Positions 2,934 through 54,163 of a DNA stretch of 64,000 bases are shown piece by piece. This stretch comes from Escherichia coli (lineage in GTDB: Bacteria > Pseudomonadota > Gammaproteobacteria > Enterobacterales > Enterobacteriaceae): NCBI RefSeq assembly GCF_036507355.1, contig NZ_AP027877.1; one strand, 5' to 3'. The notes beneath the pieces are model-generated. The model had not been told where the DNA came from. It saw only the letters and a program-made list of their open reading frames with translations, and did not search any database. Numbering within the stretch: the first letter of the stretch is position 1; every line of letters begins with the position of its first letter. A program made the translations under genes and the position numbers.

Positions 2934-3137
2934 ATGTTTGGTAACTTAGGACAGGCAAAAAAATATCTCGGCCAGGCGGCAAAGATGTTGATTGGCATTC
3001 CAGACTACGACAACTACGTCGAGCATATGAAGACCAACCATCCCGACAAGCCGTACATGAGCTATGAAGAATTCTTCCGCGAACGCCAGAACGCGCGCTA
3101 CGGCAGCGATGGTAAAGGCGGTATGCGCTGTTGTTAA
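2934..3137 (+). CDS. yjiX: Small DUF466-family protein, partner of BtsT
   Basis: 67-aa [36 protein letters not shown]...; matches my memory of YjiX. Confidence 0.85.
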
Positions 3138-3147
3138 TGGAGAGAGC

Positions 3148-4104
3148 ATGAACCCGATTGCAGTTACCCTACTCACCGGTTTTTTAGGCGCGGGAAAAAC
3201 CACCCTGCTGCGCCATATTCTTAACGAACAACACGGCTACAAGATTGCCGTGATTGAAAACGAATTCGGCGAAGTCTCCGTTGATGATCAACTAATTGGC
3301 GACCGCGCCACGCAGATCAAAACGCTGACCAACGGCTGCATCTGCTGTTCGCGCTCCAACGAGCTGGAAGACGCACTACTCGACCTGCTGGATAATCTCG
3401 ACAAGGGCAATATTCAGTTTGACCGTCTGGTCATTGAATGCACCGGCATGGCCGATCCCGGCCCGATTATTCAGACCTTTTTCTCCCATGAGATTTTATG
3501 CCAGCGTTACCTGCTGGACGGTGTGATTGCGCTGGTGGATGCGGTACATGCCGACGAGCAGATGAACCAGTTCACCATCGCCCAGTCCCAGGTTGGCTAC
3601 GCCGACCGTATTCTGCTGACCAAAACCGACGTCGCAGGCGAAGCAGAAAAACTGCGTGAACGCCTGGCGCGCATCAACGCCCGTGCACCGGTCTACACCG
3701 TCACCCACGGCGACATCGACCTGGGCCTGCTGTTCAACACCAACGGTTTTATGCTGGAAGAGAACGTCGTCAGCACCAAACCGCGTTTCCACTTTATCGC
3801 GGATAAACAAAACGATATTTCGTCGATTGTGGTGGAACTGGATTACCCGGTAGATATCAGCGAAGTTTCCCGGGTGATGGAAAACCTGCTTCTGGAATCG
3901 GCAGATAAACTGCTGCGTTACAAAGGGATGCTGTGGATTGACGGCGAACCTAACCGCCTGCTGTTCCAGGGCGTCCAGCGCCTCTACAGCGCCGACTGGG
4001 ACCGCCCGTGGGGCGATGAAAAACCGCATAGCACAATGGTGTTTATCGGGATTCAGTTGCCGGAGGAAGAGATTCGGGCAGCGTTTGCGGGGTTGAGGAA
4101 GTAA
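3148..4104 (+). CDS. yjiA: CobW/HypB-family GTPase (zinc-binding)
   Basis: From MNPIAVTLLTGFLGAGKTT: P-loop GxxGxGK and a CICC motif. The track ORF starts 28 codons upstream; I prefer the internal start. Confidence 0.85.
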   Translation: MNPIAVTLLTGFLGAGKTTLLRHILNEQHGYKIAVIENEFGEVSVDDQLIGDRATQIKTLTNGCICCSRSNELEDALLDLLDNLDKGNIQFDRLVIECTGMADPGPIIQTFFSHEILCQRYLLDGVIALVDAVHADEQMNQFTIAQSQVGYADRILLTKTDVAGEAEKLRERLARINARAPVYTVTHGDIDLGLLFNTNGFMLEENVVSTKPRFHFIADKQNDISSIVVELDYPVDISEVSRVMENLLLESADKLLRYKGMLWIDGEPNRLLFQGVQRLYSADWDRPWGDEKPHSTMVFIGIQLPEEEIRAAFAGLRK

Positions 4105-4115
4105 TTTTGGATGAT

Positions 4116-4147
4116 GGCCGCCATGTGGCGGCCTGAATTATTTTTTG
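4116..4147. terminator. Hairpin plus T-tract between convergent yjiA and the antitoxin gene; possibly bidirectional
   Basis: GGCCGCCATGTGGCGGCC stem-loop followed by TTATTTTTTG. Confidence 0.5.
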
Positions 4148-4440
4148 TTCTGATCGCGCAGCATCGCTTCACGTAAAATTGCGTTCAGGCGAGTTTGATA
4201 GCCTTTACCTGGTCGCTTCAACCATTCCATCACATCAGCATCAATACGCACCGAAGCCTGAGTTTTCAATGGCCGATAAAACTTACCGCGTTCGGCGTTA
4301 GACCATTGCTCATCGCTGGAAGGTGGGATATCACTGTAATCAATATCTTCGTCGGATTTATTCGCCAGCGCCTTCAGTTCGGCCTCATGCTGCACATCGA
4401 GTGTAGAGGAGGTCCCTCGTTTATGTTTAACCATGCTCAT
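4138..4440 (-). CDS. BrnA-like antitoxin
   Basis: C-terminal ...GKGYQTRLNAILREAM resembles BrnA-family antitoxins. Start taken at the internal Met (MSMVKHK); the track ORF extends further upstream and overlaps the toxin gene. Confidence 0.55.
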   Translation of the reverse strand: MSMVKHKRGTSSTLDVQHEAELKALANKSDEDIDYSDIPPSSDEQWSNAERGKFYRPLKTQASVRIDADVMEWLKRPGKGYQTRLNAILREAMLRDQNKK

Positions 4441-4714
4441 AGCGATTCCTCTCTTTACGATCTGCTTTTCGTGCACTGATGATTCGAATAATTTCATTTC
4501 CGCTTTCGAAACGGATGGTATGCGCAACCAGAATAACCACGATGCCGTAAACCAGGCCGATTGTCTGCCAGCGATACTCACCGTTTTCTATGCGTTCTTG
4601 CTGTGACAAATGTTGTGGATCATCAAACAATAACACCGCATCTTCAAAGCGGATGCCATGTTTCACCCGATTACTTTTGGCCTTGTTTTCATCCCATTCA
4701 AACTCCATTGGCAT
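4427..4714 (-). CDS. BrnT-like toxin (DUF497)
   Basis: MEFEWDENKAKSNRVKHGIRFEDAVLLFDDP...IRIISARKA matches the BrnT pattern as I recall it. Toxin gene lies upstream of and overlaps the antitoxin gene. Confidence 0.65.
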   Translation of the reverse strand: MPMEFEWDENKAKSNRVKHGIRFEDAVLLFDDPQHLSQQERIENGEYRWQTIGLVYGIVVILVAHTIRFESGNEIIRIISARKADRKERNRYEHG

Positions 4715-4912
4715 AATTGCCATCCCTAATTGTATATACAAAAATGTATCTACAATTATTCTGCAATTATAGCGTTGATGTTGGAAATAGCATCACGTTT
4801 CGAATAATCAACCATGAAATTGACAATGAGTAAGTTGGACTTGATTCATCCAATAGAATTTCTCGCCTGACATGGCACACTAAACACCTCGCTGTCGGGT
4901 AATGACTCCAAC

Positions 4913-5415
4913 TTACTGATAGTGTTTTATGTTCAGATAATGCCCGATGGCCTTGTCATGCAGCTCCACCGATTTTGAGAACGACAGTGACTTCCGTCCC
5001 AGCCTTGCCAGATGTTGTCTCAGATTCAGATTATGTCGCTCAATGCGCTGAGTGTAACGCTTGCTGATAACGTGCAGCTTTCCCTTCAGGCGTGATTCAT
5101 ACAGCGGCCAGCCATCCGTCATCTATACTACGACCTCAAAGGCCGACAGCAGGCTCAGAAGACGCTCCAGTGTGGCCAGAGTGCGTTCACCGAAGACGTG
5201 GCCACAACCGTCCTCCGTATCCTGTCATACGCGTAAAACAGCCAGCGCTGACGTGATTTAGCACCGACGTAGCCCCAATGTTCGTCCATTTCAGCGCAGA
5301 CAATCACATCACTGCCCGGTTGTATGCGCGAGGTTACCGACTGCGGCCTGAGTTTTTTAAGTGACGTAAAACCGTGTTGAGGCCAACGCCCATAATGCGT
5401 GCACTGGCGCGACAT
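4913..5415 (-). pseudogene. insB: IS1 insB broken into two ORF fragments (4913-5122 and 5155-5415)
   Basis: Copy 2 has a continuous 167-aa InsB ORF; here the same protein is split across two frames. Confidence 0.6.
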
Positions 5416-5609
5416 CCGACGCCATTCATGGCCATATCAATGATTTTCTGGTGCGTACCGGGCTGAGAGGCGGTGTAAGTGAACTGCAGTTGCCATGTTT
5501 TACGGCAATGAGAGCAGAGATAGCGCTGATGTCCGGCAGTGCTTTTGCCGTTACGCACCACGCCTTCAGTAGCGGAGCAGGAAGGACATCTGATGGAAAT
5601 GGAAGCCAC
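5334..5609 (-). CDS. insA: IS1 InsA
   Basis: 91-aa [46 protein letters not shown]... Confidence 0.85.
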
Positions 5610-5923
5610 GCAAGCACCTTAAAATCACCATCATACACTAAATCAGTAAGTTGGCAGCATTACCAAATTTTAATTACACTTAAGGTGTATATTTTCTATG
5701 CAAGCCATCAATTAAAGAGGTGTAATGTGCTGATGACTATTTGTAATCGTTATACATTCTGACCTGGAGTCAGAAGGTATTTCTCTGTCTGTGTATTCGC
5801 AGGCAGTGTGGTTGATTACATGAAATTCAGTACATTTGTCCTTCTCGCCTGCCTTTCGTCATTACCGACGGTATTGAATTTCGTTTTCCCCATTGGGGTT
5901 CTCCGGACAAGGAGTTGTTTGTT

Positions 5924-7156
5924 ATGCCACGTTTTTTTGCCCGCCATGCCGCCACGCTGTTTTTCCCGATGGCGTTGATTTTGTATGACTTTGCTGCGTA
6001 TCTGTCGACGGACCTGATCCAGCCAGGGATCATTAATGTGGTCCGTGATTTTAATGCCGATGTCAGTCTGGCCCCGGCTGCCGTCAGTCTCTATCTCGCT
6101 GGAGGCATGGCATTGCAGTGGCTGCTGGGGCCGCTTTCCGACAGGGTTGGCCGCAGGCCGGTGCTGATTACCGGGGCGCTAATATTTACCCTTGCCTGTG
6201 CTGCGACAATGTTCACAACGTCTATGACACAGTTTCTTATCGCGCGTGCAATTCAGGGCACCAGTATCTGTTTTATTGCCACCGTTGGTTATGTCACGGT
6301 GCAGGAGGCGTTCGGACAGACAAAAGGGATCAAGTTGATGGCGATTATCACCTCCATCGTACTGATTGCGCCGATTATTGGCCCGCTTTCCGGCGCAGCT
6401 CTGATGCACTTTGTGCACTGGAAAGTCCTTTTTGCCATCATTGCGGTTATGGGTTTTATCTCATTTGTTGGCTTACTGCTGGCGATGCCAGAGACGGTGA
6501 AGCGCGGCGCGGTTCCATTTAGCGCCAAAAGCGTCTTGCGCGATTTTCGTAATGTCTTTTGCAATCGGCTGTTCCTCTTTGGCGCAGCAACCATCTCTTT
6601 AAGCTATATCCCCATGATGAGTTGGGTGGCTGTCTCGCCGGTGATCCTGATCGACGCGGGCGGCTTAACAACTTCGCAGTTCGCCTGGACACAGGTTCCG
6701 GTGTTCGGCGCGGTGATTGTCGCGAATGCCATCGTGGCGCGTTTCGTTAAAGATCCGACCGAACCGCGCTTTATCTGGCGTGCCGTACCCCTTCAACTGG
6801 TTGGCCTCGCGCTGTTGATTATCGGCAATCTGCTGTCACCGCACGTCTGGCTGTGGTCGGTGCTGGGCACCAGTCTGTATGCTTTCGGGATTGGTTTGAT
6901 TTTCCCGACCTTATTCCGCTTTACGCTGTTTTCCAATAACTTACCGAAAGGGACCGTCTCCGCATCGCTGAATATGGTGATCCTGATGGTGATGTCTGTC
7001 TCGGTCGAAATCGGCCGCTGGCTGTGGTTTAACAGCGGTCGCTTGCAGTTTCATCTGTTAGCCGTTGTGGCAGGCGTTATCGTCGTTTTCACCCTGGCCG
7101 GATTGCTTAATCGCGTGCGCCAACATCAGGCTGCCGAGCTGGCGGAGGAGCGGTGA
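5924..7156 (+). CDS. mdtM: MFS multidrug efflux transporter
   Basis: From [35 protein letters not shown] matches my memory of MdtM; hydrophobic multi-TM profile. Confidence 0.9.
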
Positions 7157-7196
7157 TTTTTGCGCGATCCTGCCGTCAGGCTCTATTCTTAACATT

Positions 7197-8477
7197 ATGA
7201 ATAAACTCATTGAACTCAGACGCGCCAAAATGTTGGCGCTCTCTTTACTGCTTATCGCCGCTGCTACCTTTGTCGTTACGCTGTTTTTGCCGCCTAATTT
7301 TTGGGTGAGCGGCGTGAAGGCGATTGCTGAAGCGGCGATGGTCGGCGCGCTGGCGGACTGGTTTGCGGTGGTGGCGCTGTTTCGCCGCGTGCCGATTCCG
7401 ATCATTTCTCGTCATACGGCGATTATTCCGCGTAATAAAGACCGGATTGGCGAAAATCTCGGCCAGTTCGTGCAGGAAAAATTTCTCGATACCCAATCGC
7501 TGGTGGCATTGATTCGACGTCACGAACCGGCGTTGTTGATTGGCAACTGGTTTAGTCAGCCAGAAAACGCCCGCCGCGTTGGTCAGCATCTGTTGCAGAT
7601 CATGAGCGGTTTTCTTGAACTAACCGATGATGCGCGTATTCAGCGCCTGCTTAAGCGCGCGGTCCACCGGGCGATTGATAAAGTCGATCTTTCTGGCACC
7701 AGTGCGTTGATGCTGGAGAGTATGACTAAAAACGATCGTCATCAGGTGCTGCTGGATACGCTGATCGCACAGTTGATCGCCCTTCTCCAGCGCGATAAAT
7801 CGCGCAAGTTTATTGCCCAGCAAATTGTTCGCTGGCTGGAGAGCGAGCATCCACTGAAAGCCAAAATTTTGCCCACTGAATGGCTGGGCGAACATAGCGC
7901 GGAGTTGGTTTCTGACGCGGTGAATTCTTTGCTTGATGATATCAGCCGCGATCGTGCGCATCAGATCCGCCATGCGTTTGATCGCGCTACCTTCGCCCTG
8001 ATCGAGAAACTGAAAAACGATCCGGAAATGGCGGCGCGAGCCGATGCCGTAAAAAGCTATCTGAAAGAAGATGAAGCTTTTAACCGCTATCTCAGTGAAT
8101 TGTGGGGGGATTTACGGGAATGGCTGAAAGCGGATATCAACAGTGAAGATTCTCGTGTGAAAGAACGTATCGCGCGGGCTGGTCAATGGTTTGGCGAAAC
8201 GTTAATTGCCGATGATGCCTTGCGGGCGTCGTTAAATGGTCATCTGGAACAAGCCGCACACCGCATTGCGCCTGAGTTTTCCGCATTCCTGACTCGCCAT
8301 ATCAGCGACACGGTAAAAAGCTGGGACGCACGGGATATGTCGCGGCAAATCGAGTTAAATATCGGCAAAGATCTCCAGTTTATCCGTGTCAACGGTACGC
8401 TGGTTGGCGGTTGTATTGGACTTATTTTGTATTTGCTGTCGCAGCTCCCGGCCTTGTTCCCCCTCGGCAATTTATAG
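7197..8477 (+). CDS. yjiN: DUF445 inner-membrane protein
   Basis: From [27 protein letters not shown]; the ATG at 7197 was checked in the sequence. The track ORF carries a 44-codon N-terminal extension that overlaps mdtM. Confidence 0.8.
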
Positions 8478-13749: not shown

Positions 13750-14439
13750 ATGGGGATTGTTATGACACAACAAGGGGATGCTGTAGCCGGGGAGCTGGCG
13801 ACAGAAAAAGTGGGCATTAAAGGGTATCTGGCTTTTTTTCTCACCATAATCTTTTTTTCCGGTGTTTTTTCCGGGACAGACAGTTGGTGGCGCGTTTTTG
13901 ATTTTTCCGTTCTGAACGGATCGTTTGGGCAACTGCCTGGTGCGAACGGAGCCACCACCTCGTTTCGCGGCGCGGGTGGCGCGGGGGCTAAAGATGGCTT
14001 TCTCTTTGCGCTGGAGCTGGCACCGTCAGTCATTCTCTCTCTGGGGATTATTTCAATTACCGATGGTCTTGGCGGATTACGCGCCGCGCAGCAGTTAATG
14101 ACGCCAGTGCTAAAACCGTTGTTGGGCATTCCAGGGATCTGCTCGCTGGCGCTGATCGCTAACCTGCAAAACACCGATGCCGCCGCAGGTATGACCAAAG
14201 AGCTGGCGCAGGAAGGTGAAATTACCGAACGCGATAAAGTGATTTTCGCCGCATATCAAACCAGCGGTAGCGCCATTATCACCAACTACTTCTCTTCCGG
14301 CGTCGCGGTGTTTGCCTTTCTGGGCACGTCCGTAATCGTACCTTTAGCAGTCATCCTGGTGTTTAAATTTGTCGGAGCCAACATTTTGCGCGTCTGGCTT
14401 AACTTCGAAGAACGTCGCAACCCAACGCAAGGAGCGTAA
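13750..14439 (+). CDS. yjiH: Nucleoside-recognition-domain membrane protein
   Basis: 229-aa membrane ORF in the K-12 position; exact start uncertain. Confidence 0.75.
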   Translation: MGIVMTQQGDAVAGELATEKVGIKGYLAFFLTIIFFSGVFSGTDSWWRVFDFSVLNGSFGQLPGANGATTSFRGAGGAGAKDGFLFALELAPSVILSLGIISITDGLGGLRAAQQLMTPVLKPLLGIPGICSLALIANLQNTDAAAGMTKELAQEGEITERDKVIFAAYQTSGSAIITNYFSSGVAVFAFLGTSVIVPLAVILVFKFVGANILRVWLNFEERRNPTQGA

Positions 14440-14441
14440 GC

Positions 14442-14903
14442 ATGACAACTCAGGTCCGCAAAAACGTCATGGATATGTTTATCGATGGTGCGCGCCGTGG
14501 CTTTACTATCGCCACGACCAACCTGCTGCCAAACGTGGTGATGGCGTTTGTCATCATTCAGGCGCTGAAAATTACCGGCCTGCTCGACTGGGTGGGGCAT
14601 ATCTGTGAACCCGTAATGGCGCTGTGGGGATTACCCGGTGAAGCGGCAACCGTCCTTTTAGCCGCATTAATGAGTATGGGTGGCGCAGTCGGTGTTGCCG
14701 CCAGTCTGGCAACCGCTGGCGCATTAACCGGTCACGATGTCACCGTTTTACTGCCCGCGATGTATTTAATGGGCAACCCGGTGCAAAATGTCGGTCGCTG
14801 CCTGGGGACAGCCGAAGTGAATGCCAAATATTACCCGCATATCATTACGGTCTGCGTGATTAACGCATTGCTGTCGATCTGGGTTATGCAGCTTATTGTT
14901 TAA
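14442..14903 (+). CDS. yjiG: SpmB-like inner-membrane protein
   Basis: 153-aa membrane ORF immediately after yjiH, as in K-12. Confidence 0.8.
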   Translation: MTTQVRKNVMDMFIDGARRGFTIATTNLLPNVVMAFVIIQALKITGLLDWVGHICEPVMALWGLPGEAATVLLAALMSMGGAVGVAASLATAGALTGHDVTVLLPAMYLMGNPVQNVGRCLGTAEVNAKYYPHIITVCVINALLSIWVMQLIV

Positions 14904-14915
14904 CAAGGAGTTACC

Positions 14916-16088
14916 ATGATTGATTATACCGCAGCCGGTTTTACCCTACTGCAGGGAGCGCATTTGTATGCGCCGGAAGATCGGGGAATTTGCGATGTCC
15001 TCGTCGCTAACGGCAAAATTATCGCCGTTGCCAGTAATATCCCTTCTGACATTGTACCGGACTGCACGGTTGTCGATCTCAGCGGGCAGATCCTCTGCCC
15101 AGGTTTTATTGATCAACACGTCCATTTGATTGGCGGTGGCGGCGAAGCAGGTCCCACGACGCGCACGCCGGAAGTGGCGTTAAGTCGTCTGACGGAAGCA
15201 GGCGTCACGTCAGTGGTTGGTCTGCTGGGCACCGACTCTATCTCTCGCCACCCGGAATCCCTGCTCGCCAAGACCCGTGCGCTCAATGAAGAAGGCATCA
15301 GCGCCTGGATGCTGACCGGCGCTTATCATGTCCCTTCCCGCACTATTACGGGTTCCGTGGAAAAAGACGTGGCGATTATCGATCGCGTGATTGGCGTGAA
15401 ATGCGCCATCTCTGATCACCGTTCTGCCGCACCGGACGTTTATCACCTGGCTAATATGGCGGCGGAATCCCGCGTTGGCGGTTTGCTCGGCGGTAAACCT
15501 GGCGTCACCGTGTTCCACATGGGCGACAGCAAAAAGGCGTTACAGCCTGTCTATGACCTGCTGGAAAACTGCGATGTGCCGATTAGCAAGTTGCTGCCGA
15601 CCCACGTTAACCGCAACGTTCCGTTGTTTGAGCAGGCGCTGGAGTTCGCGCGCAAAGGCGGCACCATCGATATCACCAGCAGCATTGACGAACCAGTCGC
15701 CCCTGCCGAAGGTATTGCCCGCGCCGTTCAGGCGGGTATTCCGCTGGCACGCGTCACCCTCAGCTCCGACGGCAACGGTAGCCAGCCGTTCTTCGATGAC
15801 GAAGGGAATTTAACCCATATCGGTGTTGCCGGTTTTGAAACGTTGCTGGAAACCGTGCAGGTGCTGGTCAAAGATTATGATTTCAGTATCAGCGATGCCC
15901 TGCGCCCGCTCACCAGTAGCGTAGCCGGTTTCCTTAACCTGAGCGGGAAAGGCGAAATTCTGCCAGGCAATGACGCAGACTTACTGGTCATGACGCCAGA
16001 ATTACGCATTGAGCAGGTATACGCTCGCGGCAAGCTGATGGTCAAAGACGGCAAAGCCTGCGTGAAAGGAACGTTTGAAACGGCATAA
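14916..16088 (+). CDS. iadA: Isoaspartyl dipeptidase
   Basis: 390-aa ORF with amidohydrolase features (HxH in FIDQHVHLIGGGGE). Confidence 0.9.
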   Translation: MIDYTAAGFTLLQGAHLYAPEDRGICDVLVANGKIIAVASNIPSDIVPDCTVVDLSGQILCPGFIDQHVHLIGGGGEAGPTTRTPEVALSRLTEAGVTSVVGLLGTDSISRHPESLLAKTRALNEEGISAWMLTGAYHVPSRTITGSVEKDVAIIDRVIGVKCAISDHRSAAPDVYHLANMAAESRVGGLLGGKPGVTVFHMGDSKKALQPVYDLLENCDVPISKLLPTHVNRNVPLFEQALEFARKGGTIDITSSIDEPVAPAEGIARAVQAGIPLARVTLSSDGNGSQPFFDDEGNLTHIGVAGFETLLETVQVLVKDYDFSISDALRPLTSSVAGFLNLSGKGEILPGNDADLLVMTPELRIEQVYARGKLMVKDGKACVKGTFETA

Positions 16089-19091: not shown

Positions 19092-19865
19092 TCAGGCGTC
19101 GACTTTATCCAGCGGCCATGAATCAAACAGATAGCCATCAAAATAAATATCGTCAACGTTCGAGAATTCCAGCAGACGTTGCTTAACGTTTTCCAGATGC
19201 TGCCACATTGCCAGCTTCGCCGCTCGGGCATCTTTTTTGATTAACGCGGCGAGGATCTGTTTGTGATCGCCCAACCACTCTTTGCGATACAGGCTGTCAT
19301 CCAGATGGCTGTGCAACTGGATCCACATTGGATTGTTTTCCCGCCACTGCCAGGACTGACGGAACAGCTCCACCAGCATGCTGTTATGCGTTGCTTCGGC
19401 AATAGCGAGATGGAACTGCATGTCACCGCTTTCGCTGCTGCCCGGCGCACTGGAAGCCAGTTCACGCTCTTCCAGTTGCAATGCCTGACGCATTTTGACG
19501 ATATCTTCGCGGGTAGCCTGCAGGGCGGCAAACTCGGCGATGTTGCTCTCAAGAAGCTGTCGCGCCTGCAACAGCTCAAAAGGACCCGCATCATTGCAAA
19601 CGTTGGCATCCGGACTGTCTGTGTTGTGGCTGCCTGAGCTATCAAGAACATAGATACCGGCACCCCGGCGCACTTCCACCAGCCCTTTGATCTCCAGCAT
19701 GATCAGCGCTTCACGTACCACCGTCCGCGTGACATCAAGCATTTCTGCAATTTCACGCTCCGGCGGCAACCGTTCGCCAGGATTGTACGGCGTCTTTATG
19801 ATCAGATCGCGGATCATCGCCCCGACTTCCTGGTAAGGTCTTTGCGCAGAGGTGGCAGATTTCAT
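19092..19865 (-). CDS. uxuR: GntR-family repressor of the uxu operon
   Basis: 257-aa ORF MKSATSAQRPYQEVGAMIRDLIIKTPYNPGERLPPEREIAEMLDVTRT... Confidence 0.9.
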   Translation of the reverse strand: MKSATSAQRPYQEVGAMIRDLIIKTPYNPGERLPPEREIAEMLDVTRTVVREALIMLEIKGLVEVRRGAGIYVLDSSGSHNTDSPDANVCNDAGPFELLQARQLLESNIAEFAALQATREDIVKMRQALQLEERELASSAPGSSESGDMQFHLAIAEATHNSMLVELFRQSWQWRENNPMWIQLHSHLDDSLYRKEWLGDHKQILAALIKKDARAAKLAMWQHLENVKQRLLEFSNVDDIYFDGYLFDSWPLDKVDA

Positions 19866-23144: not shown

Positions 23145-24488
23145 ATGCATGTGCTTAACATTCTCTGGGTGGTATTCGGCATTGGTCTGATGCTGGTACT
23201 GAATTTGAAGTTCAAAATCAATTCAATGGTGGCTTTGTTGGTGGCGGCGCTGTCCGTCGGGATGCTGGCGGGCATGGATTTGATGTCGCTGCTGCACACC
23301 ATGAAAGCGGGCTTCGGCAACACGCTGGGGGAACTGGCTATCATCGTGGTGTTCGGTGCGGTCATCGGTAAATTGATGGTCGACTCCGGCGCGGCTCACC
23401 AGATAGCACATACGCTGCTGGCACGTCTCGGTCTGCGCTATGTACAGCTGTCGGTGATTATCATCGGCCTGATTTTTGGTCTGGCGATGTTCTATGAAGT
23501 GGCCTTTATCATGTTAGCGCCGCTGGTTATTGTCATTGCCGCCGAAGCTAAAATTCCGTTCCTGAAACTGGCGATCCCGGCAGTAGCAGCTGCCACTACC
23601 GCACATTCACTGTTCCCACCGCAGCCGGGTCCTGTGGCGCTGGTGAATGCTTATGGCGCAGATATGGGGATGGTTTATATCTATGGCGTACTGGTGACGA
23701 TCCCAAGTGTAATCTGCGCTGGTCTGATCCTGCCGAAGTTCCTCGGCAATCTTGAGCGCCCAACGCCATCATTCCTGAAAGCAGATCAACCGGTAGATAT
23801 GAACAATCTGCCCTCTTTCGGCGTTTCGATTCTGGTGCCGCTGATCCCGGCGATCATTATGATCTCCACCACCATCGCCAATATCTGGCTGGTAAAAGAT
23901 ACCCCTGCCTGGGAAGTGGTTAACTTTATCGGTTCCTCGCCGATTGCAATGTTTATTGCGATGGTGGTTGCATTCGTACTCTTTGGCACCGCACGTGGTC
24001 ATGACATGCAGTGGGTGATGAACGCTTTTGAAAGTGCGGTGAAAAGCATTGCAATGGTGATTCTGATCATCGGTGCGGGTGGCGTGTTGAAGCAAACTAT
24101 CATCGACACCGGCATTGGCGACACCATCGGCATGTTGATGTCCCACGGCAATATCTCGCCCTACATTATGGCATGGCTGATCACTGTGCTAATTCGTCTG
24201 GCGACGGGTCAGGGTGTCGTTTCGGCGATGACCGCCGCCGGGATTATCAGTGCTGCAATCCTTGATCCAGCAACCGGTCAGCTGGTTGGCGTGAATCCGG
24301 CGCTGCTGGTGCTGGCGACGGCTGCGGGTTCCAACACCCTCACCCACATTAATGATGCCTCATTCTGGCTGTTCAAAGGTTACTTTGACCTGTCGGTAAA
24401 AGACACGTTGAAAACCTGGGGACTGCTGGAGCTGGTCAACTCCGTGGTTGGGCTGATTATTGTGTTGATTATCAGCATGGTAGCGTAA
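23145..24488 (+). CDS. gntP: GntP-family gluconate/fructuronate transporter
   Basis: 447-aa hydrophobic ORF between uxuA and fimH, as in K-12. Confidence 0.9.
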
Positions 24489-24553
24489 AAGAACACCAGA
24501 GCCTGCCAATGGCGGGCTCTGTTCGGATTGTCGGCAAAGTGCGCTTTGTTTAT

Positions 24554-24592
24554 GCCAGATGCGACGCTGACGCGTCTTATCTGGCCTACAAA
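24554..24592. repeat. REP element
   Basis: GCCAGATGCGACGCTGACGCGTCTTATCTGGCCTAC. Confidence 0.7.
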
Positions 24593-24661
24593 GGGCTAAC
24601 GTGCAGGTTTTTAGCTTCAGGTAATATTGCGTACCTGCATTAGCAATGCCCTGTGATTTCT

Positions 24662-25564
24662 TTATTGATAAACAAAAGTCACGCCAATAATCGATTGCAC
24701 ATTCCCTGCAGTCACCTGCCCTCCGGTACGTGCGTAATTTGCCGTTAATCCCAGACTTACCGCCGAAGTTCCTACTGCTCCTAACGATACCGTGTTATTC
24801 GCTGGAATAATCGCACCGTTGCGCGTCAACTGTACGCCGACGCCCTGCGCTGGTGAAAACGACGCGGTATTGGTGAAAATCGAGTTGCCCGCATCTGCGG
24901 TTGTGCCGGAGAGGTAATACCCCAGGTTTTGGCTTTTCGCACAATAAACGGTAAGAGGAATTGGCACTGAACCAGGGTAGTCCGGCAGAGTAACGGTGAC
25001 ATCACGAGCAGAAACATCACAGCCGCCAGTGGGCACCACCACATCATTATTGGCGTAAATATTCCACACAAACTGGAAATCATCGCTGTTATAGTTGTTG
25101 GTCTGTCGCAAAATAAGCACGGCAATTAATGAGCCAGCTTTAATCGCCACCCCGCCCGCACTGCTCACAGGCGTCAAATAAAGCGCCACCGGCCACGGCT
25201 TATCCGTTCTCGAATTATAAACAACCCGCGGCGTTTCGCTGGTGGTCGGAAATGGATAGCTACTGCCACTATATTTTACGGTCCCGGAAAAATTAGATAA
25301 CACGCCGCCATAAGCCGAGCCTCGTTGCAGTGTGACATAGTCTGTAATGGTTTCCGGATAATCGTTATGGCAAAAGATTTGCGTCGAAAGATCTACGACC
25401 AGGTTTTGCCCCACATTCACGGCAGGCGCAAGGTTTACATAAACATTAGCGCTGCCACCACCAATAGGGATAGCGGTACCATTGGCGGTTTTACAGGCGA
25501 ATGACCAGGCATTTACCGACCAGCCCATCAGCAGTACAGCAAACAGGGTAATAACTCGTTTCAT
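24662..25564 (-). CDS. fimH: Type 1 fimbrial adhesin
   Basis: 300-aa ORF MKRVITLFAVLLMGWSVNAWSFACKTANGTAIPIGGGSANVYVNLAP... Confidence 0.9.
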   Translation of the reverse strand: MKRVITLFAVLLMGWSVNAWSFACKTANGTAIPIGGGSANVYVNLAPAVNVGQNLVVDLSTQIFCHNDYPETITDYVTLQRGSAYGGVLSNFSGTVKYSGSSYPFPTTSETPRVVYNSRTDKPWPVALYLTPVSSAGGVAIKAGSLIAVLILRQTNNYNSDDFQFVWNIYANNDVVVPTGGCDVSARDVTVTLPDYPGSVPIPLTVYCAKSQNLGYYLSGTTADAGNSIFTNTASFSPAQGVGVQLTRNGAIIPANNTVSLGAVGTSAVSLGLTANYARTGGQVTAGNVQSIIGVTFVYQ

Positions 25565-25583
25565 TACAATTATCTCTTCGGGT

Positions 25584-26087
25584 TCAGCTGTAGGTATAGG
25601 TGATGCTAATCACTGCCTGAATGGTTCCCTGAGTGGCTCCGCCATTTACCGTCAATGCTCTGACCTGTAACGGGAAGTGCGCTGATTGTGAGGAATCATC
25701 CACCTGAACTGTTTTGGTTGCGCCAGTATTCAATGTGTTGCCACTGTCATCCTGTAGCTCTAACTGGATGTTTTGCGCGGTCCCCTGGTTTTTATAATAT
25801 CCGGTATTGTCGGCTGCCCCGCTGAAGCTGGCAGTGACCCTCGACGTTCCCACCGGACAATTAGTCAACTCAAGCGCAACATCATGCCAGGCCGATGCCG
25901 CCCCGGCAGACATCAGACTGAAAGAATAAAGATCGCCGAGATCAACCGTGGCATTGGTGGTGGAAACTGTGCACGGTTTGGCGACGACCTTACCGTTCAC
26001 CGTGATGGTGACATCGGCTGCCTGTATCGTCGCACTTGCGAGCGCCAATATTGCCGCCAATAAATACCCACGTTTGCGCCATTTCAT
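25584..26087 (-). CDS. fimG: Type 1 fimbrial minor subunit
   Basis: Pilin-like ORF with signal peptide; start taken at MKWRKRGYLL. Confidence 0.85.
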   Translation of the reverse strand: MKWRKRGYLLAAILALASATIQAADVTITVNGKVVAKPCTVSTTNATVDLGDLYSFSLMSAGAASAWHDVALELTNCPVGTSRVTASFSGAADNTGYYKNQGTAQNIQLELQDDSGNTLNTGATKTVQVDDSSQSAHFPLQVRALTVNGGATQGTIQAVISITYTYS

Positions 26088-44200: not shown

Positions 44201-44298
44201 GTTCACAGATAAAACACTCTCCAGGAAACCCGGGGCGGTTCACTTAGCCGCGTGTCCATTATTGCTGGATAAGATCATAACGAGGTAATGACTCCAAC

Positions 44299-44802
44299 TT
44301 ATTGATAGTGTTTTATGTTCAGATAATGCCCGATGACTTTGTCATGCAGCTCCACCGATTTTGAGAACGACAGCGACTTCCGTCCCAGCCGTGCCAGGTG
44401 CTGCCTCAGATTCAGGTTATGCCGCTCAATTCGCTGCGTATATCGCTTGCTGATTACGTGCAGCTTTCCCTTCAGGCGGGATTCATACAGCGGCCAGCCA
44501 TCCGTCATCCATATCACCACGTCAAAGGGTGACAGCAGGCTCATAAGACGCCCCAGCGTCGCCATCGTGCGTTCACCGAATACGTGCGCAACAACCGTCT
44601 TCCGGAGCCTGTCATACGCGTAAAACAGCCAGCGCTGGCGCGATTTAGCCCCGACATAGCCCCACTGTTCGTCCATTTCCGCGCAGACGATGACGTCACT
44701 GCCCGGCTGTATGCGCGAGGTTACCGACTGCGGCCTGAGTTTTTTAAGTGACGTAAAATCGTGTTGAGGCCAACGCCCATAATGCGGGCTGTTGCCCGGC
44801 AT
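44299..44802 (-). CDS. insB: IS1 InsB (transposase frame)
   Basis: 167-aa ORF ...[42 protein letters not shown]... Confidence 0.85.
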
Positions 44803-44996
44803 CCAACGCCATTCATGGCCATATCAATGATTTTCTGGTGCGTACCGGGTTGAGAAGCGGTGTAAGTGAACTGCAGTTGCCATGTTTTACGACAGTGAGA
44901 GCAGAGATAGCGCTGATGTCCGGCGGTGCTTTTGCCGTTACGCACCACCCCGTCAGTAGCTGAACAGGAGGGACAGCTGATAGAAACAGAAGCCAC
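44721..44996 (-). CDS. insA: IS1 InsA
   Basis: 91-aa [46 protein letters not shown]... Confidence 0.9.
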
Positions 44997-45065
44997 TGGA
45001 GCACCTCAAAAACACCATCATACACTAAATCAGTAAGTTGGCAGCATCACCGGCCTCGCATTTAA

Positions 45066-45911
45066 TTATTCATTTAAAGATTCAAGAAATGTCCAGCCTT
45101 TATGAGTAACATAATACATTTGTCCTTTTGCCCCTCTTTCAATCACAAAATCAAAGGATAACAGTTCGTTAAGTGCGCCCTCCCAACGGGCTACCTCTCT
45201 AGCCGAACTTCCACCAAAGGATTGATTTCCCGCTTGAATATCCGTGCCACCTAAATGCCTTATCACATAAATTGTTCCGCTATCATCGACACATGCCAAT
45301 TTCAGCAAACTGAGTGCATCGGCGGACAAATTACTTTCTGGCAAAGATTGACTTGTATTCGCATCAGGAGAATTGTTAATGGTAGATATAAGAGAAGACA
45401 AATAAGGGCTACTAGAAATAATTATCGAAAGTTGCCTACGGACTTTGTCTTTGAAATCAGATAAGTCATTAAAAGACTCTATCAATCCCTTTTGCATGCA
45501 CTCAATTTTGAACAATTTAAGAGACTCATATTGTTCTCTATCAAGGCTTTCAGGGGCAACAGGCTTTGAGGAAAAGTAAATCATTGCCGGTTTTCCCGCA
45601 TTCAAATGACGGTGAATTTCTTCGACTGTTCCGCTGGCCTCGTTCCCAGTCGGTGAGCCTAGACGAGTCCAAAACACACCGATTAATAAATCACAATCTA
45701 CTAATAATCTTTGATTAATCAACTCCTGAGGCCTAACTCCTAATTCGGGTGATGTATGAGTTTCCCATCCAATTGGTGTCAACATTACTTTTGAACGAGC
45801 TGAATTTATATCATTCCACTCATGGATCATTTCACGAATGACTTGTCTCTCTTCAGCGACATCACCAGGAGAAGCAATCATTACAGGGATAACAGTTGCT
45901 GTGTAAGCCAT
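45066..45911 (-). CDS. Hypothetical protein with DUF4062-like N-terminal domain and an uncharacterised C-terminal domain
   Basis: N-terminus VMIASPGDVAEERQVIREMIHEW ... DCDLLIGVFWTRLGSP ... SGTVEEIHRHLNAGKPAMIYF resembles the DUF4062 pattern as I recall it; GGAGAG RBS 6 nt upstream; visibly AT-rich. Confidence 0.45.
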   Translation of the reverse strand: MAYTATVIPVMIASPGDVAEERQVIREMIHEWNDINSARSKVMLTPIGWETHTSPELGVRPQELINQRLLVDCDLLIGVFWTRLGSPTGNEASGTVEEIHRHLNAGKPAMIYFSSKPVAPESLDREQYESLKLFKIECMQKGLIESFNDLSDFKDKVRRQLSIIISSSPYLSSLISTINNSPDANTSQSLPESNLSADALSLLKLACVDDSGTIYVIRHLGGTDIQAGNQSFGGSSAREVARWEGALNELLSFDFVIERGAKGQMYYVTHKGWTFLESLNE

Positions 45912-45924
45912 AAACTCTCCATAT

Positions 45925-46485
45925 TCAATCGGTAATAGCTGCTACAGTCGCTCTTGAAACGCCATATTGACGCGCTAACGCACTGATACTCAAACCGCTA
46001 TTCTTTTTCTCTAAAATCTCTCTACGGGCTTCTGACGCGATTTTAGGAGGTCTGCCCAATTTCTTACCTTCGGCTTTTGCTCGTGATAGTCCCGCCTGAG
46101 TGCGCTCAATCAGCAGATCACGCTCCATCTCCGCAACCGCGGCGAGCATAGATAATAGCAACTTCCCAGCGGCAGAAGTGAGATCTGTGTTACCAAGCTG
46201 GTGGACAAGAACCTTGATATTACGGTCAGCCAGCGCCCTTACCGTTTGCAGGACGTCAATCGCATCACGCCCCAGACGATCAAGCTTCGCTACCACCAAC
46301 GTTTCACCATCGCGGATTTTATTGAGCATTTCAGAAAATGCTTTACGTTGCATTGCCGGAACCTTCCCGCTAACAACATCGGCAAACCAGTAATCAATTT
46401 GCCACCCAGCCTGCCCAAGCTCCAGCCGTTGGTTCTCAGTATCCTGCTGCGATGTCGAAACACGTCCGTAGCCAAAAGTTGCCAT
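45925..46485 (-). CDS. Small serine recombinase (resolvase/invertase family), about 186 aa
   Basis: From MATFGYGRVSTSQQDTENQ (catalytic Ser region) with a C-terminal helix-turn-helix (LSISALARQYGVSRATV); GGGGAG RBS upstream of the ATG at 46485. The track ORF carries a 23-codon extension. Confidence 0.8.
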   Translation of the reverse strand: MATFGYGRVSTSQQDTENQRLELGQAGWQIDYWFADVVSGKVPAMQRKAFSEMLNKIRDGETLVVAKLDRLGRDAIDVLQTVRALADRNIKVLVHQLGNTDLTSAAGKLLLSMLAAVAEMERDLLIERTQAGLSRAKAEGKKLGRPPKIASEARREILEKKNSGLSISALARQYGVSRATVAAITD

Positions 46486-46507
46486 TGTTATCTCCCCATC
46501 TGACCCC

Positions 46508-46605
46508 TGCCAGAAAACGAGGCCAACATTAGGATGGCCTGCCAGAAAAGCCAAGGCTATTTTTCCAACAGTGTGAAAGCGTGCGATTGGGAGGTGCCAG
46601 AAAAC
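46508..46605. promoter_or_regulatory. Three direct copies of TGCCAGAAAA(C/G) upstream of the recombinase gene, plus a short GGCCA...TGGCC palindrome; candidate recombinase binding or regulatory site
   Basis: Copies read at 46508, 46540 and 46595; the GGCCAACATTAGGATGGCC palindrome lies between the first two. Confidence 0.35.
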
Positions 46606-48888: not shown

Positions 48889-48973
48889 TGGTGCCGAAGG
48901 CCGGACTCGAACCGGCACGTATTTCTACGGTTGATTTTGAATCAACTGCGTCTACCGATTTCGCCACTTCGGC
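48889..48973 (-). tRNA. leuX: tRNA-Leu (leuX type, CAA anticodon)
   Basis: Reverse complement reads GCCGAAGTGGCGAAATCGGTAGACGCAGTTGATTCAAAATCAACCGTAGAAATACGTGCCGGTTCGAGTCCGGCCTTCGGCACCA, a cloverleaf with a long variable arm and CCA end. Confidence 0.9.
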
Positions 48974-51980: not shown

Positions 51981-53063
51981 TTACGATTTTCTCATTAACA
52001 GCCACAGGCTGATTAAGAAGAAGCTGGCGCTTGGCAACAGTGCGCCGATGATCGGCGGGATGCCATAAACCAACGTCAGCGGGCCGAAGATCTGGTCCAG
52101 TACATAGAAGACAAAACCGAAGCTGATACCGGTGACCACACGCACACCCATCGGTACGCTACGCAGTGGGCCAAAGATGAACGACAGCGCCATCAGCATC
52201 ATCACCGCCACGGATAGCGGCTGGAAGATTTTGCTCCACATGTTGAGCTGATAACGTCCGGCATCCTGACCGCTCGATTTCAGATACTTCACATAGTTGT
52301 GCAAACCGCTGATAGAGAGTGCATCCGGATCCAGCGCCACCACGCCCAGTTTGTCAGGCGTGAGGTTGGTTTTCCAGGTGCCGCTCACCGTCTGCGAACC
52401 GGTGATCTGTTTCGGATTGGTCAGATCAGATTCATCAATCTGCGACAGACGCCAGACTTTATGTTCCGGGTCAAACTTCGCGGTAGCGGCATAGCGTACG
52501 GATTGCAGACGACGATTCTCGTTAAAGGCATAAATACTGATGCCACCTAACTCTTCGTCACCTTTAACCCGCTCAATGTAGACGAAGTTGTTGCCATCTT
52601 TCGCCCATAAACCTTGCTGGGTAGAGAGCAACGAGCCGCCGTACATCGCCTGCGCACGGTAGTTACGCGCCATCTGCTCGCCCTGCGGCGCGACCCATTC
52701 GCCAATCGCCATCGTCAGCAAGACCAGCGGAATGGCGGTTTTCATCACCGACAGCGCCACCTGCATACGGGTAAAACCAGAAGCCTGCATCACCACCAGT
52801 TCGCTGCGCTGCGCCAGCATCCCAAGACCAAGCAACGCCCCAAGCAAAGCCGCCATCGGGAAGAATATTTGCACATCTTTCGGCACGCTCAGCAAGGTAT
52901 ACATTCCTGCGCCTAACGCGTCGTAGCTCCCCTGCCCGGCTTTTTTCAACTGATCGACAAATTTGATAATGCCCGACAGCGACACCAGCATGAACAGCGT
53001 CATCATGATGGTGGTGAAAATAGTTTTACCGATATAGCGGTCAAGTACGCCAAAAGGTTGCAT
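51981..53063 (-). CDS. lptG: LPS export ABC permease
   Basis: From MQPFGVLDRYIGKTIFTTIMMTLFMLVSL. Confidence 0.9.
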   Translation of the reverse strand: MQPFGVLDRYIGKTIFTTIMMTLFMLVSLSGIIKFVDQLKKAGQGSYDALGAGMYTLLSVPKDVQIFFPMAALLGALLGLGMLAQRSELVVMQASGFTRMQVALSVMKTAIPLVLLTMAIGEWVAPQGEQMARNYRAQAMYGGSLLSTQQGLWAKDGNNFVYIERVKGDEELGGISIYAFNENRRLQSVRYAATAKFDPEHKVWRLSQIDESDLTNPKQITGSQTVSGTWKTNLTPDKLGVVALDPDALSISGLHNYVKYLKSSGQDAGRYQLNMWSKIFQPLSVAVMMLMALSFIFGPLRSVPMGVRVVTGISFGFVFYVLDQIFGPLTLVYGIPPIIGALLPSASFFLISLWLLMRKS

Positions 53064-54163
53064 CACACCGCTCCTTTACGCGAAAAACTGGCGCGCAGGC
53101 GGCGGACCGGCACAGTGTCCCAAAGGTTGAGAACAATCGCCAAAGCCAGATAAATCAGGTTAACGGTCCACATCCACAGCGTCGGGTCCAGCTTACCTTT
53201 ACCGCCGTTCGATTTCAGGGAGGTCTGGATCAGGAAGAAAAGTAGATACAGCAGCATGGCTGGCAGCATCGACAGTACGCGTCCCTGACGCGGGTTAACC
53301 ACGCTCAACGGTACAACCATAAGTGCCATCATAAACACGGTGAATACCAACGTGATACGCCAGTTCAGTTCTGCGCGGGCACGATCGGTGTCAGTGTTCC
53401 ACAATGTGCGCATGTCCATCTGGTCGGTATCGTTCGGGTCGAGCGCCACCGCCTGGTGACCAATGATCGCCTGATAATCCTGGAAATCCGTAATGCGGAA
53501 ATCACGTAACAGTGCAGTGCCTTCGAAGCGCGTTCCCTGGTTGAGAGTGACGACCTGGGAGCCGTCGCGCAGCTGGGTTAAATGTCCGGAATCGGCCACC
53601 ACCACAGAAGGTCGTGCATTACCTTTTGGTCGAATTTGTGCGAGGAACACATCTTTGAAATCGCTGCCGTCAACGCTTTCGATGAACAGCACCGAGCTGC
53701 CATTAGTCGCTTGCTGGAATTGCCCTTGCGCCAGCGCCGCCATGCCAGGGTTCGCTTTCGCTTCTGCTAACACTTCATCCTGATGACGCGATGACCACGG
53801 TCCCGCCCACATCACGTTAACCGCCGCGACGATTGCCGTGAATACCGCAAGGATCATTGCCGCTTTCACCAGAACCGCTTTGCTCAGGCCGCAGGCATGC
53901 ATTACCGTAATTTCACTTTCGGTATACAGTTTGCCCAGCGTCATCAGCAGCCCGAGGAACAGGCTTAATGGCAGGATAAGCTGCGCCATTTCCGGCACGC
54001 CCAACCCGAGAAGGGAGAGCACCAGATTCGCCGGAATATCGCCGTCAACCGCTGCGCCGAGGATCCTCACTAACTTTTGACAGAAGAAGATCAAAAGCAA
54101 GATGAAGAGTATCGCCAGCTGGCTTTTGAGCGTCTCCCGCACCAGATATCTTATGATTATCAC
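53063..54163 (-). CDS. lptF: LPS export ABC permease
   Basis: MIIIRYLVRETLKSQLAILFILLLIFFCQK... Confidence 0.9.
   Translation of the reverse strand: MIIIRYLVRETLKSQLAILFILLLIFFCQKLVRILGAAVDGDIPANLVLSLLGLGVPEMAQLILPLSLFLGLLMTLGKLYTESEITVMHACGLSKAVLVKAAMILAVFTAIVAAVNVMWAGPWSSRHQDEVLAEAKANPGMAALAQGQFQQATNGSSVLFIESVDGSDFKDVFLAQIRPKGNARPSVVVADSGHLTQLRDGSQVVTLNQGTRFEGTALLRDFRITDFQDYQAIIGHQAVALDPNDTDQMDMRTLWNTDTDRARAELNWRITLVFTVFMMALMVVPLSVVNPRQGRVLSMLPAMLLYLLFFLIQTSLKSNGGKGKLDPTLWMWTVNLIYLALAIVLNLWDTVPVRRLRASFSRKGAV

What the first reader, a model, noticed from the sequence alone, without database searches (positions are those of the whole stretch)
4105..5923. The immigration-control locus is reduced to a BrnT/BrnA-like toxin-antitoxin pair plus a defective IS1
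As I recall K-12, the interval between yjiA and mdtM holds mrr, hsdRMS, symE, mcrBC and several yji genes. Here the two flanking genes are only 1.8 kb apart, and the gap contains just a TA pair and IS1. The strain therefore appears to lack the chromosomal type I and type IV restriction systems at this site.
Basis: partly seen in the sequence, partly recalled or inferred. Interest (0 to 1): 0.5.

Follow-up and report, generated by a model that had tools for sequence, protein, structure and literature searches.

The report
IS1-deleted restriction locus, BrnTA retained
In this E. coli the well-known variable "immigration control" restriction locus between yjiA and mdtM has been cut down by an IS1-associated 11-kb deletion to a BrnT/BrnA toxin-antitoxin pair and a dead IS1, a common, already annotated allele found in about one fifth of complete E. 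coli genomes.

Summary
yjiA ends at 4104, mdtM starts at 5924, and the 1,819 bp between them hold only a terminator-like hairpin, brnA, brnT, a 767-bp IS1 and the conserved mdtM leader, which includes the small ORF ytiE. K-12 has 19,389 bp here (mrr, hsdRMS, symE, mcrBC, yjiV/T/S/R, rpnD).

The ancestor was not K-12-like. It was a different cassette found in many E. coli: yjiA-brnAT-Mrr-like nuclease-hsdM-hsdS-hsdR-symE-yjiS-yjiR-rpn-mdtM. The window matches that allele up to the base where IS1 begins, and again from the base where IS1 ends. About 11.3 kb is missing and there is no target-site duplication, which is the signature of an IS1-associated deletion.

The IS1 is an IS1F isoform. It carries the premature insB stop seen in every IS1F copy compared, plus an extra 1-bp deletion.

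No hsd, mcr or mrr homologue lies anywhere in the 64-kb window, which also spans the neighbouring defence hotspot 37. Whether the strain restricts DNA through systems elsewhere could not be tested. NCTC86 has this allele yet carries an active Type III system.

Verdict: real, correctly read, ordinary and already known.

The parts
3148..4104 (+). yjiA (GTPase), the left conserved anchor of the immigration control region
   Evidence: NCBIfam NF008578, 683 bits. RefSeq annotation of the identical sequence. 98.6% identical to K-12 up to the stop codon, where homology ends.
4116..4133 (.). Perfect 8-bp-arm G+C hairpin (GGCCGCCA TG TGGCGGCC) between the convergent genes yjiA and brnA. It looks like a terminator.
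   Evidence: Function inferred only.
4138..4440 (-). brnA, antitoxin (100 aa), intact
   Evidence: Pfam PF14384, E=3.1e-17. Residues 14-57 match the antitoxin chain of PDB 7vd7, E=1.4e-16. PGAP name 'BrnA antitoxin family protein', WP_000063156.1. pN/pS about 0.08-0.1 against B2 alleles, from few sites.
4427..4714 (-). brnT, toxin (95 aa), intact. It lies upstream of brnA and overlaps it by 14 nt.
   Evidence: Pfam PF04365, E=4.7e-24. PDB 7vd7 toxin chain, E=4e-52. Brucella BrnT 3u97, E=1.6e-4. PGAP name 'BrnT family toxin', WP_001297643.1.
4715..4897 (.). Retained part of the divergent brnT / Mrr-like-nuclease intergenic region. It contains a 14-nt inverted repeat (4727-4740 / 4745-4758) that looks like an operator.
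   Evidence: Collinear with the intact alleles L003, L004 and L009 up to ...CGCTGTCG at 4897, which is 13 bp before the nuclease start codon in those alleles. Inverted repeat. Operator role inferred.
4898..5664 (-). IS1 of the IS1F isoform, 767 bp, with both terminal inverted repeats intact. insA (5334-5609) and the A6C frameshift motif are intact. insB is inactivated by a TAG stop (5123-5125) and a 1-bp deletion (about 5201). There is no target-site duplication.
   Evidence: Alignment to the canonical IS1 at 44284-45051 shows 73 differences; alignment to K-12 IS1F shows 9. PGAP note 'frameshifted; internal stop'. Flanks are CGCTGTCG | AAATTTTAA.
5665..5923 (+). Conserved mdtM upstream region, including the small ORF ytiE (5727-5762). 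Homology with K-12 and with the intact alleles resumes exactly at 5665.
5924..7156 (+). mdtM (yjiO), an MFS efflux pump and the right boundary of hotspot #36
   Evidence: NCBIfam NF011932, 851 bits. Annotation. Hotspot definition from bioRxiv 10.1101/2022.06.09.495481.

Best explanation
The interval is a deletion derivative of one common allele of the E. coli immigration control region (ICR, defence hotspot #36).

The parental allele reads yjiA - brnA - brnT - Mrr-like type IV nuclease - hsdM - hsdS - hsdR - symE - yjiS - yjiR - rpn - ytiE - mdtM. Its type I system is not of the EcoKI family.

An IS1F element now sits with one end 13 bp upstream of where the nuclease gene would start. Its other end lies 258 bp upstream of mdtM. 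The roughly 11.3 kb in between is gone.

The deletion arose in one of two ways. Either IS1 transposed within the molecule from one of these two sites to the other (an adjacent deletion), or two directly repeated IS1F copies recombined. Both routes leave a single IS1 without a target-site duplication.

The event happened once, long ago. The allele has since spread by descent and recombination to about 20% of sequenced E. coli.

What remains is an apparently functional toxin-first type II BrnT/BrnA module. BrnT is a RelE-fold ribonuclease and BrnA neutralises it and probably represses the operon. The IS1F that remains cannot make its own transposase.

Shown: gene content, breakpoints, IS1 defects and prevalence.
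Inferred: the direction of the event (deletion), a single origin, the sub-mechanism, and BrnTA activity.
For: Gene content and identities.

K-12 comparison: 19,389 bp against 1,819 bp. K-12 homology ends at the yjiA stop codon and resumes exactly at the IS1 end.

Intact brnTA-linked alleles occur in three unrelated strains: C 691-04A, R12 and MEI005. The window is collinear with them at 97-99% identity up to 4897 and again from 5665. 11,270 bp (L003) or 11,378 bp (L009) is replaced by IS1.

The lost genes are a type IV Mrr-like nuclease and type I M, S and R subunits (PADLOC). They are only about 24% identical to EcoKI.

There is no target-site duplication.

The identical arrangement covers at least 80% of the query in 1,101 of 5,426 genomes. 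The left junction is present in 1,112. brnTA sits at this site in 2,112.

The IS1F isoform and its shared stop codon.

Literature: the ICR is a variable cassette between yjiA and yjiN. brnAT is listed among its toxin-antitoxin systems, and only 36% of enterobacterial ICRs carry a type I system (PMC12707154). Hotspot #36 is defined as yjiA-yjiO, and 'empty' means three or fewer genes.
Against: No intermediate was found in 5,426 genomes. I looked for an IS1F inserted at either junction with the cassette still present. The two single hits are independent insertions of other IS1 types. Neither the order of events nor the sub-mechanism can therefore be shown.

A single origin is inferred from the identical junctions, not from a phylogeny.

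BrnTA activity, its autoregulation and the terminator role of the hairpin are inferred from sequence only. The pN/pS values rest on fewer than 10 substitutions.
Confidence: 0.9

Rival explanations
1. The deletion arose specifically by homologous recombination between two directly repeated IS1F copies, one upstream of the nuclease gene and one upstream of mdtM. This would replace one-ended intramolecular transposition as the sub-mechanism of the best explanation.
For: It also yields one IS1 with no target-site duplication. IS1F has a premature insB stop in every copy examined. An event that needs no IS1F transposase at the deletion step is therefore attractive.
Against: No genome with either single insertion, or with both, was found. 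A transposase supplied in trans by canonical IS1 copies would equally allow an adjacent deletion; an apparently intact copy lies at 44284-45051.
Confidence: 0.35
2. The locus was reduced directly from a K-12-like ICR (mrr-hsdRMS(EcoKI)-symE-mcrBC).
For: K-12 is the textbook reference, and its flanks are 96-98.6% identical to the window.
Against: K-12 has no brnTA, and its homology with the window ends at the yjiA stop codon. The 793 bp from yjiA to IS1 match brnTA-linked alleles whose type I genes are only about 24% identical to EcoKI.
Confidence: 0.03
3. The short allele is a primitive site that was never occupied, into which an IS1 simply inserted.
For: Many ICRs lack type I systems: 64% according to PMC12707154.
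Against: There is no target-site duplication. The framework genes yjiS, yjiR and rpn are missing here, yet they are present in K-12, E. coli C, B2 and other alleles. The retained 183 bp upstream of brnT is the intergenic region that brnT shares with the nuclease gene, cut 13 bp before that gene's start.
Confidence: 0.03
4. Assembly artefact: the region was collapsed at an IS1 repeat.
For: IS1 is multicopy and can break or collapse assemblies.
Against: The identical arrangement is present in 1,101 independently assembled complete genomes.
Confidence: 0.01

Closest known systems
E. coli K-12 immigration control region (mrr-hsdRMS-symE-mcrBC; Raleigh 1992; hotspot #36)
   Same: Same chromosomal site and the same anchors: btsT-yjiX-yjiA on one side and ytiE-mdtM-yjiN on the other.
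   Different: K-12 has 19.4 kb with type IA EcoKI, Mrr and McrBC, and no brnTA. The window has 1.8 kb and no restriction genes. The two alleles share nothing between the yjiA stop codon and the mdtM leader.
brnTA-linked ICR allele of strains such as C 691-04A (O6:K2:H1), R12 and MEI005. The literature on CFT073 and O157 calls the type I system at this site family IB (PMC2481252).
   Same: yjiA-brnA-brnT and the first 183 bp upstream of brnT are 97-99% identical. So is the mdtM leader.
   Different: These strains retain the Mrr-like nuclease, hsdMSR, symE, yjiS, yjiR and rpn, about 11.3 kb in all. In the window that stretch is replaced by IS1F. The IB family assignment was not tested here, beyond showing about 24% identity to EcoKI.
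E. coli C 'empty' ICR (Sibley & Raleigh 2004, as cited in PMC12707154)
   Same: It is also an ICR without a functional type I system, in a strain known as restrictionless.
   Different: E. coli C has yjiA - DUF262 (GmrSD-like) gene - hsdR fragment - yjiS - yjiR - rpn - mdtM. It has no brnTA and no IS1, and it keeps the framework genes. It is an independent route to an empty site. The 2004 paper itself could not be read.
IS1F of E. coli K-12 (fec-linked; insB7 pseudogene)
   Same: 98.8% identical (9 differences in 768 bp) and carries the same TGG->TAG stop in insB.
   Different: It lies at a different site, has an extra 1-bp deletion in insB, and has no target-site duplication.
BrnT/BrnA of Brucella abortus (PDB 3u97) and the enterobacterial complex PDB 7vd7
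   Same: Same Pfam families, toxin-first operon, small RelE-fold toxin, and an antitoxin with a C-terminal DNA-binding domain.
   Different: It is only distantly related to the Brucella protein (E=1.6e-4) and close to 7vd7, by my reading of the alignment about 80 of 94 positions identical. No activity data exist for this copy.

Membership tests
BrnT/BrnA type II toxin-antitoxin system | Toxin carries the BrnT domain (PF04365) | tested here: met
   Full-length match, model positions 1-77 of 77, E=4.7e-24. Matches PDB 3u97 BrnT at E=1.6e-4 and the 7vd7 toxin at E=4e-52.
BrnT/BrnA type II toxin-antitoxin system | Antitoxin carries the BrnA domain (PF14384) | tested here: met
   Model positions 1-68 of 68, E=3.1e-17.
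BrnT/BrnA type II toxin-antitoxin system | Two small adjacent co-oriented genes, toxin first, translationally coupled | tested here: met
   brnT 4427-4714 and brnA 4138-4440 lie on the same strand and overlap by 14 nt.
BrnT/BrnA type II toxin-antitoxin system | Toxin is a growth-inhibiting ribonuclease that the antitoxin neutralises; the complex autoregulates the operon | not testable with these tools
   The only indications are intact ORFs and a 14-nt inverted repeat at 4727-4758 upstream of brnT.
IS1 family insertion sequence | About 768 bp with roughly 23-bp terminal inverted repeats | tested here: met
   767 bp. Ends are GGTAATGCTGCCAACTTACTGAT and GGTAATGACTCCAACTTACTGAT.
IS1 family insertion sequence | insA, then insB in the -1 frame, with the A6C slippery motif | tested here: met
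   insA is 91 aa and intact (NF033558, NF050000). TTAAAAAAC is conserved.
IS1 family insertion sequence | Complete InsAB' transposase reading frame (autonomous element) | tested here: not met
   insB has a TAG stop at 5123-5125 and a 1-bp deletion near 5201. PGAP note: 'frameshifted; internal stop'.
IS1 family insertion sequence | 8-9-bp target-site duplication flanking a simple insertion | tested here: not met
   The flanks are CGCTGTCG and AAATTTTAA. This is as expected after a deletion or after recombination between two IS copies.
Immigration control region / defence hotspot #36 | Variable segment bounded by yjiA and mdtM(yjiO)/yjiN | tested here: met
   Definitions from PMC12707154 and bioRxiv 10.1101/2022.06.09.495481.
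Immigration control region / defence hotspot #36 | Occupied by type I and/or type IV restriction genes | tested here: not met
   tblastn with 16 ICR proteins gave no hit in the window. BrnT has no PADLOC match. By the three-genes-or-fewer criterion this is an 'empty' hotspot.
IS-mediated deletion | Both deletion breakpoints coincide exactly with the IS ends, relative to an intact allele | tested here: met
IS-mediated deletion | Existence of the pre-deletion intermediate (IS inserted, cassette present) | tested here: not met
   None among 5,426 genomes.

The most novel reading that the evidence does not exclude
The retained parts may not be passive debris; two untested readings are open.

(a) BrnTA may act as an addiction module that sets the left limit of viable deletions. 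That would explain why the toxin-antitoxin pair, with its promoter and operator, is the only surviving part of the cassette in about 1,100 genomes.

(b) The outward-facing IS1F end (-35 TTGGCA at 5651) together with the flanking TACACT may form a hybrid promoter that changes ytiE/mdtM efflux-pump expression. That could give the deletion allele a selective advantage and explain its high frequency.
Probability: 0.12. Interest if true: 0.3.

Novelty: already known. Interest (0 to 1): 0.1.

Why it matters
For this strain it means that the classical hsd/mrr/mcr locus contributes no restriction barrier. That is useful when predicting transformability, phage sensitivity or methylome.

It is also a clean textbook example of an IS-associated collapse of a defence island that leaves a toxin-antitoxin pair behind.

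It does not open a new question. ICR variability, brnAT as an ICR component and empty ICR states are all documented, and RefSeq already annotates this exact arrangement in more than a thousand genomes.

Tried and rejected
1. I tried to read Sibley & Raleigh 2004 (NAR 32:522). It is not held. Instead I fetched the E. coli C locus directly, which took three calls to find. It is a different 'empty' allele.

2. I searched for pre-deletion intermediates with two synthetic junction queries. None were found. The single hits are independent insertions of other IS1 types.

3. The right-junction count (450) is lower than the full-arrangement count (1,101). I attribute this to the limit of 40 pieces per record for a multicopy IS, and I did not use that number.

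4. I tried to identify the source genome. The locus is 100% identical to MS15047, B-2207 and LT601384. However, the window diverges from MS15047 beyond about 30 kb, and no complete genome covers 28-52 kb at more than 83%. The genome could therefore not be screened for restriction genes elsewhere.

5. I suspected that the second IS1 (44284-45051) had truncated a PDC-S60-like defence gene. This was rejected: the 281-aa DUF4062 ORF is full length in genomes that lack the IS1.

6. An Rfam scan of 3000-7500 found nothing. No symR-like or other known RNA is present.

7. NCBIfam has no model that names BrnT or BrnA. Pfam was needed for that.

Full report
**1. What is there**

The window is E. coli chromosome. 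The stretch 3000-7200 is 100% identical to several complete genomes. RefSeq annotates those genomes as btsT, yjiX, yjiA, 'BrnA antitoxin family protein', 'BrnT family toxin', 'IS1 family transposase (frameshifted; internal stop)', mdtM, yjiN.

I confirmed the gene identities independently:
- yjiA occupies 3148-4104 (NF008578, 683 bits).
- mdtM occupies 5924-7156 (NF011932, 851 bits).
- brnT occupies 4427-4714 on the minus strand (PF04365, E=4.7e-24).
- brnA occupies 4138-4440 on the minus strand (PF14384, E=3.1e-17).

The toxin gene comes first and overlaps the antitoxin gene by 14 nt. BrnT matches the toxin chain of PDB 7vd7 (E=4e-52) and, distantly, Brucella BrnT 3u97 (E=1.6e-4). BrnA residues 14-57 match the 7vd7 antitoxin chain.

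A perfect G+C hairpin at 4116-4133 separates the convergent genes yjiA and brnA. A 14-nt inverted repeat at 4727-4758 lies just upstream of brnT.

**2. The K-12 comparison**

MG1655 has 19,389 bp between yjiA and mdtM. The genes are mrr, hsdR, hsdM, hsdS, symE/symR, mcrB, mcrC, yjiV, yjiT, yjiS, yjiR, rpnD and ytiE.

K-12 is not the parental state, though. Its similarity to the window stops at the yjiA stop codon. It resumes only at window position 5665, the first base after IS1.

**3. The parental allele and the breakpoints**

The 793 bp from yjiA to IS1 (4105-4897) occur at this chromosomal site in 2,112 of 5,426 complete genomes.

Three genomes that have brnTA at this site but no IS1 were read (C 691-04A, R12 and MEI005). 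Their order is yjiA-brnA-brnT-'restriction endonuclease' (388 aa)-hsdM-hsdS-hsdR-symE-yjiS-yjiR-rpn, followed by mdtM-yjiN in C 691-04A and MEI005; in R12 no mdtM is annotated and yjiN follows rpn.

PADLOC calls the 388-aa protein a type IV methyl-directed (Mrr-like) nuclease, and calls the other three a type I M, S and R set. These proteins are only about 24% identical to EcoKI. The nuclease shares 32% identity with the Mrr catalytic domain. The literature assigns the CFT073/O157 system at this site to family IB (PMC2481252). I did not test that assignment.

The window is collinear with these alleles up to ...CACCTCGCTGTCG at 4897, which is 13 bp before the nuclease start codon. It is collinear again from AAATTTTAATT at 5665, which is 258 bp before mdtM. 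Between those points, 11,270 bp (L003) or 11,378 bp (L009) is replaced by IS1.

The IS1 flanks, CGCTGTCG and AAATTTTAA, are not a target-site duplication.

This is the expected footprint of an IS1-associated deletion. The direction of the event is also clear. yjiS, yjiR and rpn are conserved in K-12, E. coli C and the brnTA-linked alleles, and they are missing here.

**4. The IS1**

The element spans 4898-5664 and is 767 bp long. Both terminal repeats, insA and the A6C frameshift motif are intact.

Compared with the canonical IS1 at 44284-45051 it has 73 differences. These include a 1-bp deletion (near 5201) and a TGG->TAG stop (5123-5125) in insB.

It is an IS1F isoform, differing at only 9 positions from the K-12 fec-linked IS1F, whose insB7 is annotated as a pseudogene. 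The TAG stop is shared by K-12 IS1F, by the fec-linked copy in MS15047 and by the ICR copy in strain F1267. The 1-bp deletion is shared with MS15047 but absent from F1267.

'Defective IS1' is therefore correct. The element was probably already non-autonomous when it arrived, which implies it was mobilised in trans or that two copies recombined.

I looked for surviving intermediates with synthetic junction queries. None were found. The sub-mechanism stays open.

**5. Prevalence and prior knowledge**

The whole arrangement covers at least 80% of the query in 1,101 of 5,426 genomes. The left junction is present in 1,112. Carriers include NCTC86 (Escherich's original isolate), B7A, AW1.7 and PCN061.

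A 2025 EcoSal Plus review describes the ICR between yjiA and yjiN as a cassette-like defence island. It lists brnAT among its toxin-antitoxin systems and reports type I systems in only 36% of enterobacterial ICRs (PMC12707154). Hochhauser et al. define hotspot #36 as yjiA-yjiO and call islands of three or fewer genes 'empty'.

E. coli C, the classical restrictionless strain, reaches emptiness by a different route: yjiA-DUF262 gene-hsdR fragment-yjiS-yjiR-rpn-mdtM.

**6. Restriction genes elsewhere**

tblastn with 16 proteins from the K-12 and brnTA-linked ICR alleles found nothing in the 64-kb window.

The window also spans the neighbouring hotspot 37, from uxuR (19092-19865) past leuX (48889-48973) to lptG (51981-53066). 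That hotspot contains fim genes, nan-like genes, IS66, a canonical IS1, a serine recombinase and a DUF4062 protein. It contains no restriction-modification system.

The rest of the genome could not be examined, because no complete genome in the collection matches the whole window. NCTC86 carries the same ICR allele yet has an active Type III system, Eco86II (PMC8259958). 'Lacks restriction at this site' is therefore established. 'Restrictionless strain' is not.

**7. Function of what remains**

The intact ORFs, the coupled gene arrangement, the inverted repeat upstream of brnT and the low pN/pS of brnA suggest that the BrnTA module is still active. pN/pS for brnA is about 0.08-0.1 against the B2 alleles, but it rests on few sites. 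At least one related genome, F1267, has a brnT nonsense mutation.

Two further ideas are speculative:
- BrnTA addiction may have limited how far the deletion could extend.
- The IS1 end may create an outward promoter-like site at 5651-5680 facing ytiE/mdtM.

**8. Verdict**

The mechanism is an IS1F-associated deletion of about 11.3 kb from a brnTA-linked ICR cassette (confidence 0.9). This is a common allele that is already annotated and already described in the literature. Interest is low.

Noticed in passing
window 5727-5762 (+): The 11-codon small ORF ytiE is identical to the K-12 copy and survives just downstream of the IS1 end. K-12 carries an extra 11 bp (TTGCAGTCTCG) further downstream, which is absent from the window and from the B2 allele.
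   Followed up: partly
window 5651-5680 (+): A sigma-70-like site with its -35 (TTGGCA) inside the IS1 terminal repeat and its -10 (TACACT) in the flank, pointing towards ytiE/mdtM. It could be a hybrid promoter. This is a consensus match only.
   Followed up: no
window 44284-45051: A second, canonical IS1 (98.8% identical to the copy PGAP names IS1B in MS15047 and 90.6% to the locus copy). Its insA and insB frames are intact, so it is a possible trans source of transposase for the defective IS1F.
   Followed up: partly
window 19092-53066: The window spans the whole of defence 'hotspot 37', from uxuR to lptG, including leuX tRNA-Leu(CAA) at 48889-48973. No hsd, mcr or mrr homologues and no complete PADLOC system were found among the ORFs tested. 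Both neighbouring restriction hotspots are therefore unoccupied in this strain.
   Followed up: partly
window 45066-46554 (-): A DUF4062 protein (281 aa) next to a serine recombinase (209 aa), beside leuX. The DUF4062 protein weakly matches the N-terminal 169 of 906 positions of the PADLOC candidate PDC-S60. It is full length, not truncated by the adjacent IS1. Function unknown.
   Followed up: partly
L010 (strain F1267) 14323-14610 and 14809-15506: In a related genome with the same deletion allele, brnT carries a W50 stop, and the IS1F lacks the 1-bp deletion seen in the window. Decay of the remnants is therefore lineage-specific.
   Followed up: partly
NZ_CP025842.1 (strain 720632), 2397659-2404894: The left and right IS1 junctions of this allele lie 7 kb apart on opposite strands. 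That suggests a secondary rearrangement, either an inversion or an insertion.
   Followed up: no
L008 (E. coli C) 23502-25995: The ICR of E. coli C still encodes a 550-aa DUF262 protein (PADLOC Orf5/HEC-06/SspE-like, that is GmrSD-like) and an hsdR fragment. The classical 'empty' site is therefore not gene-free.
   Followed up: partly
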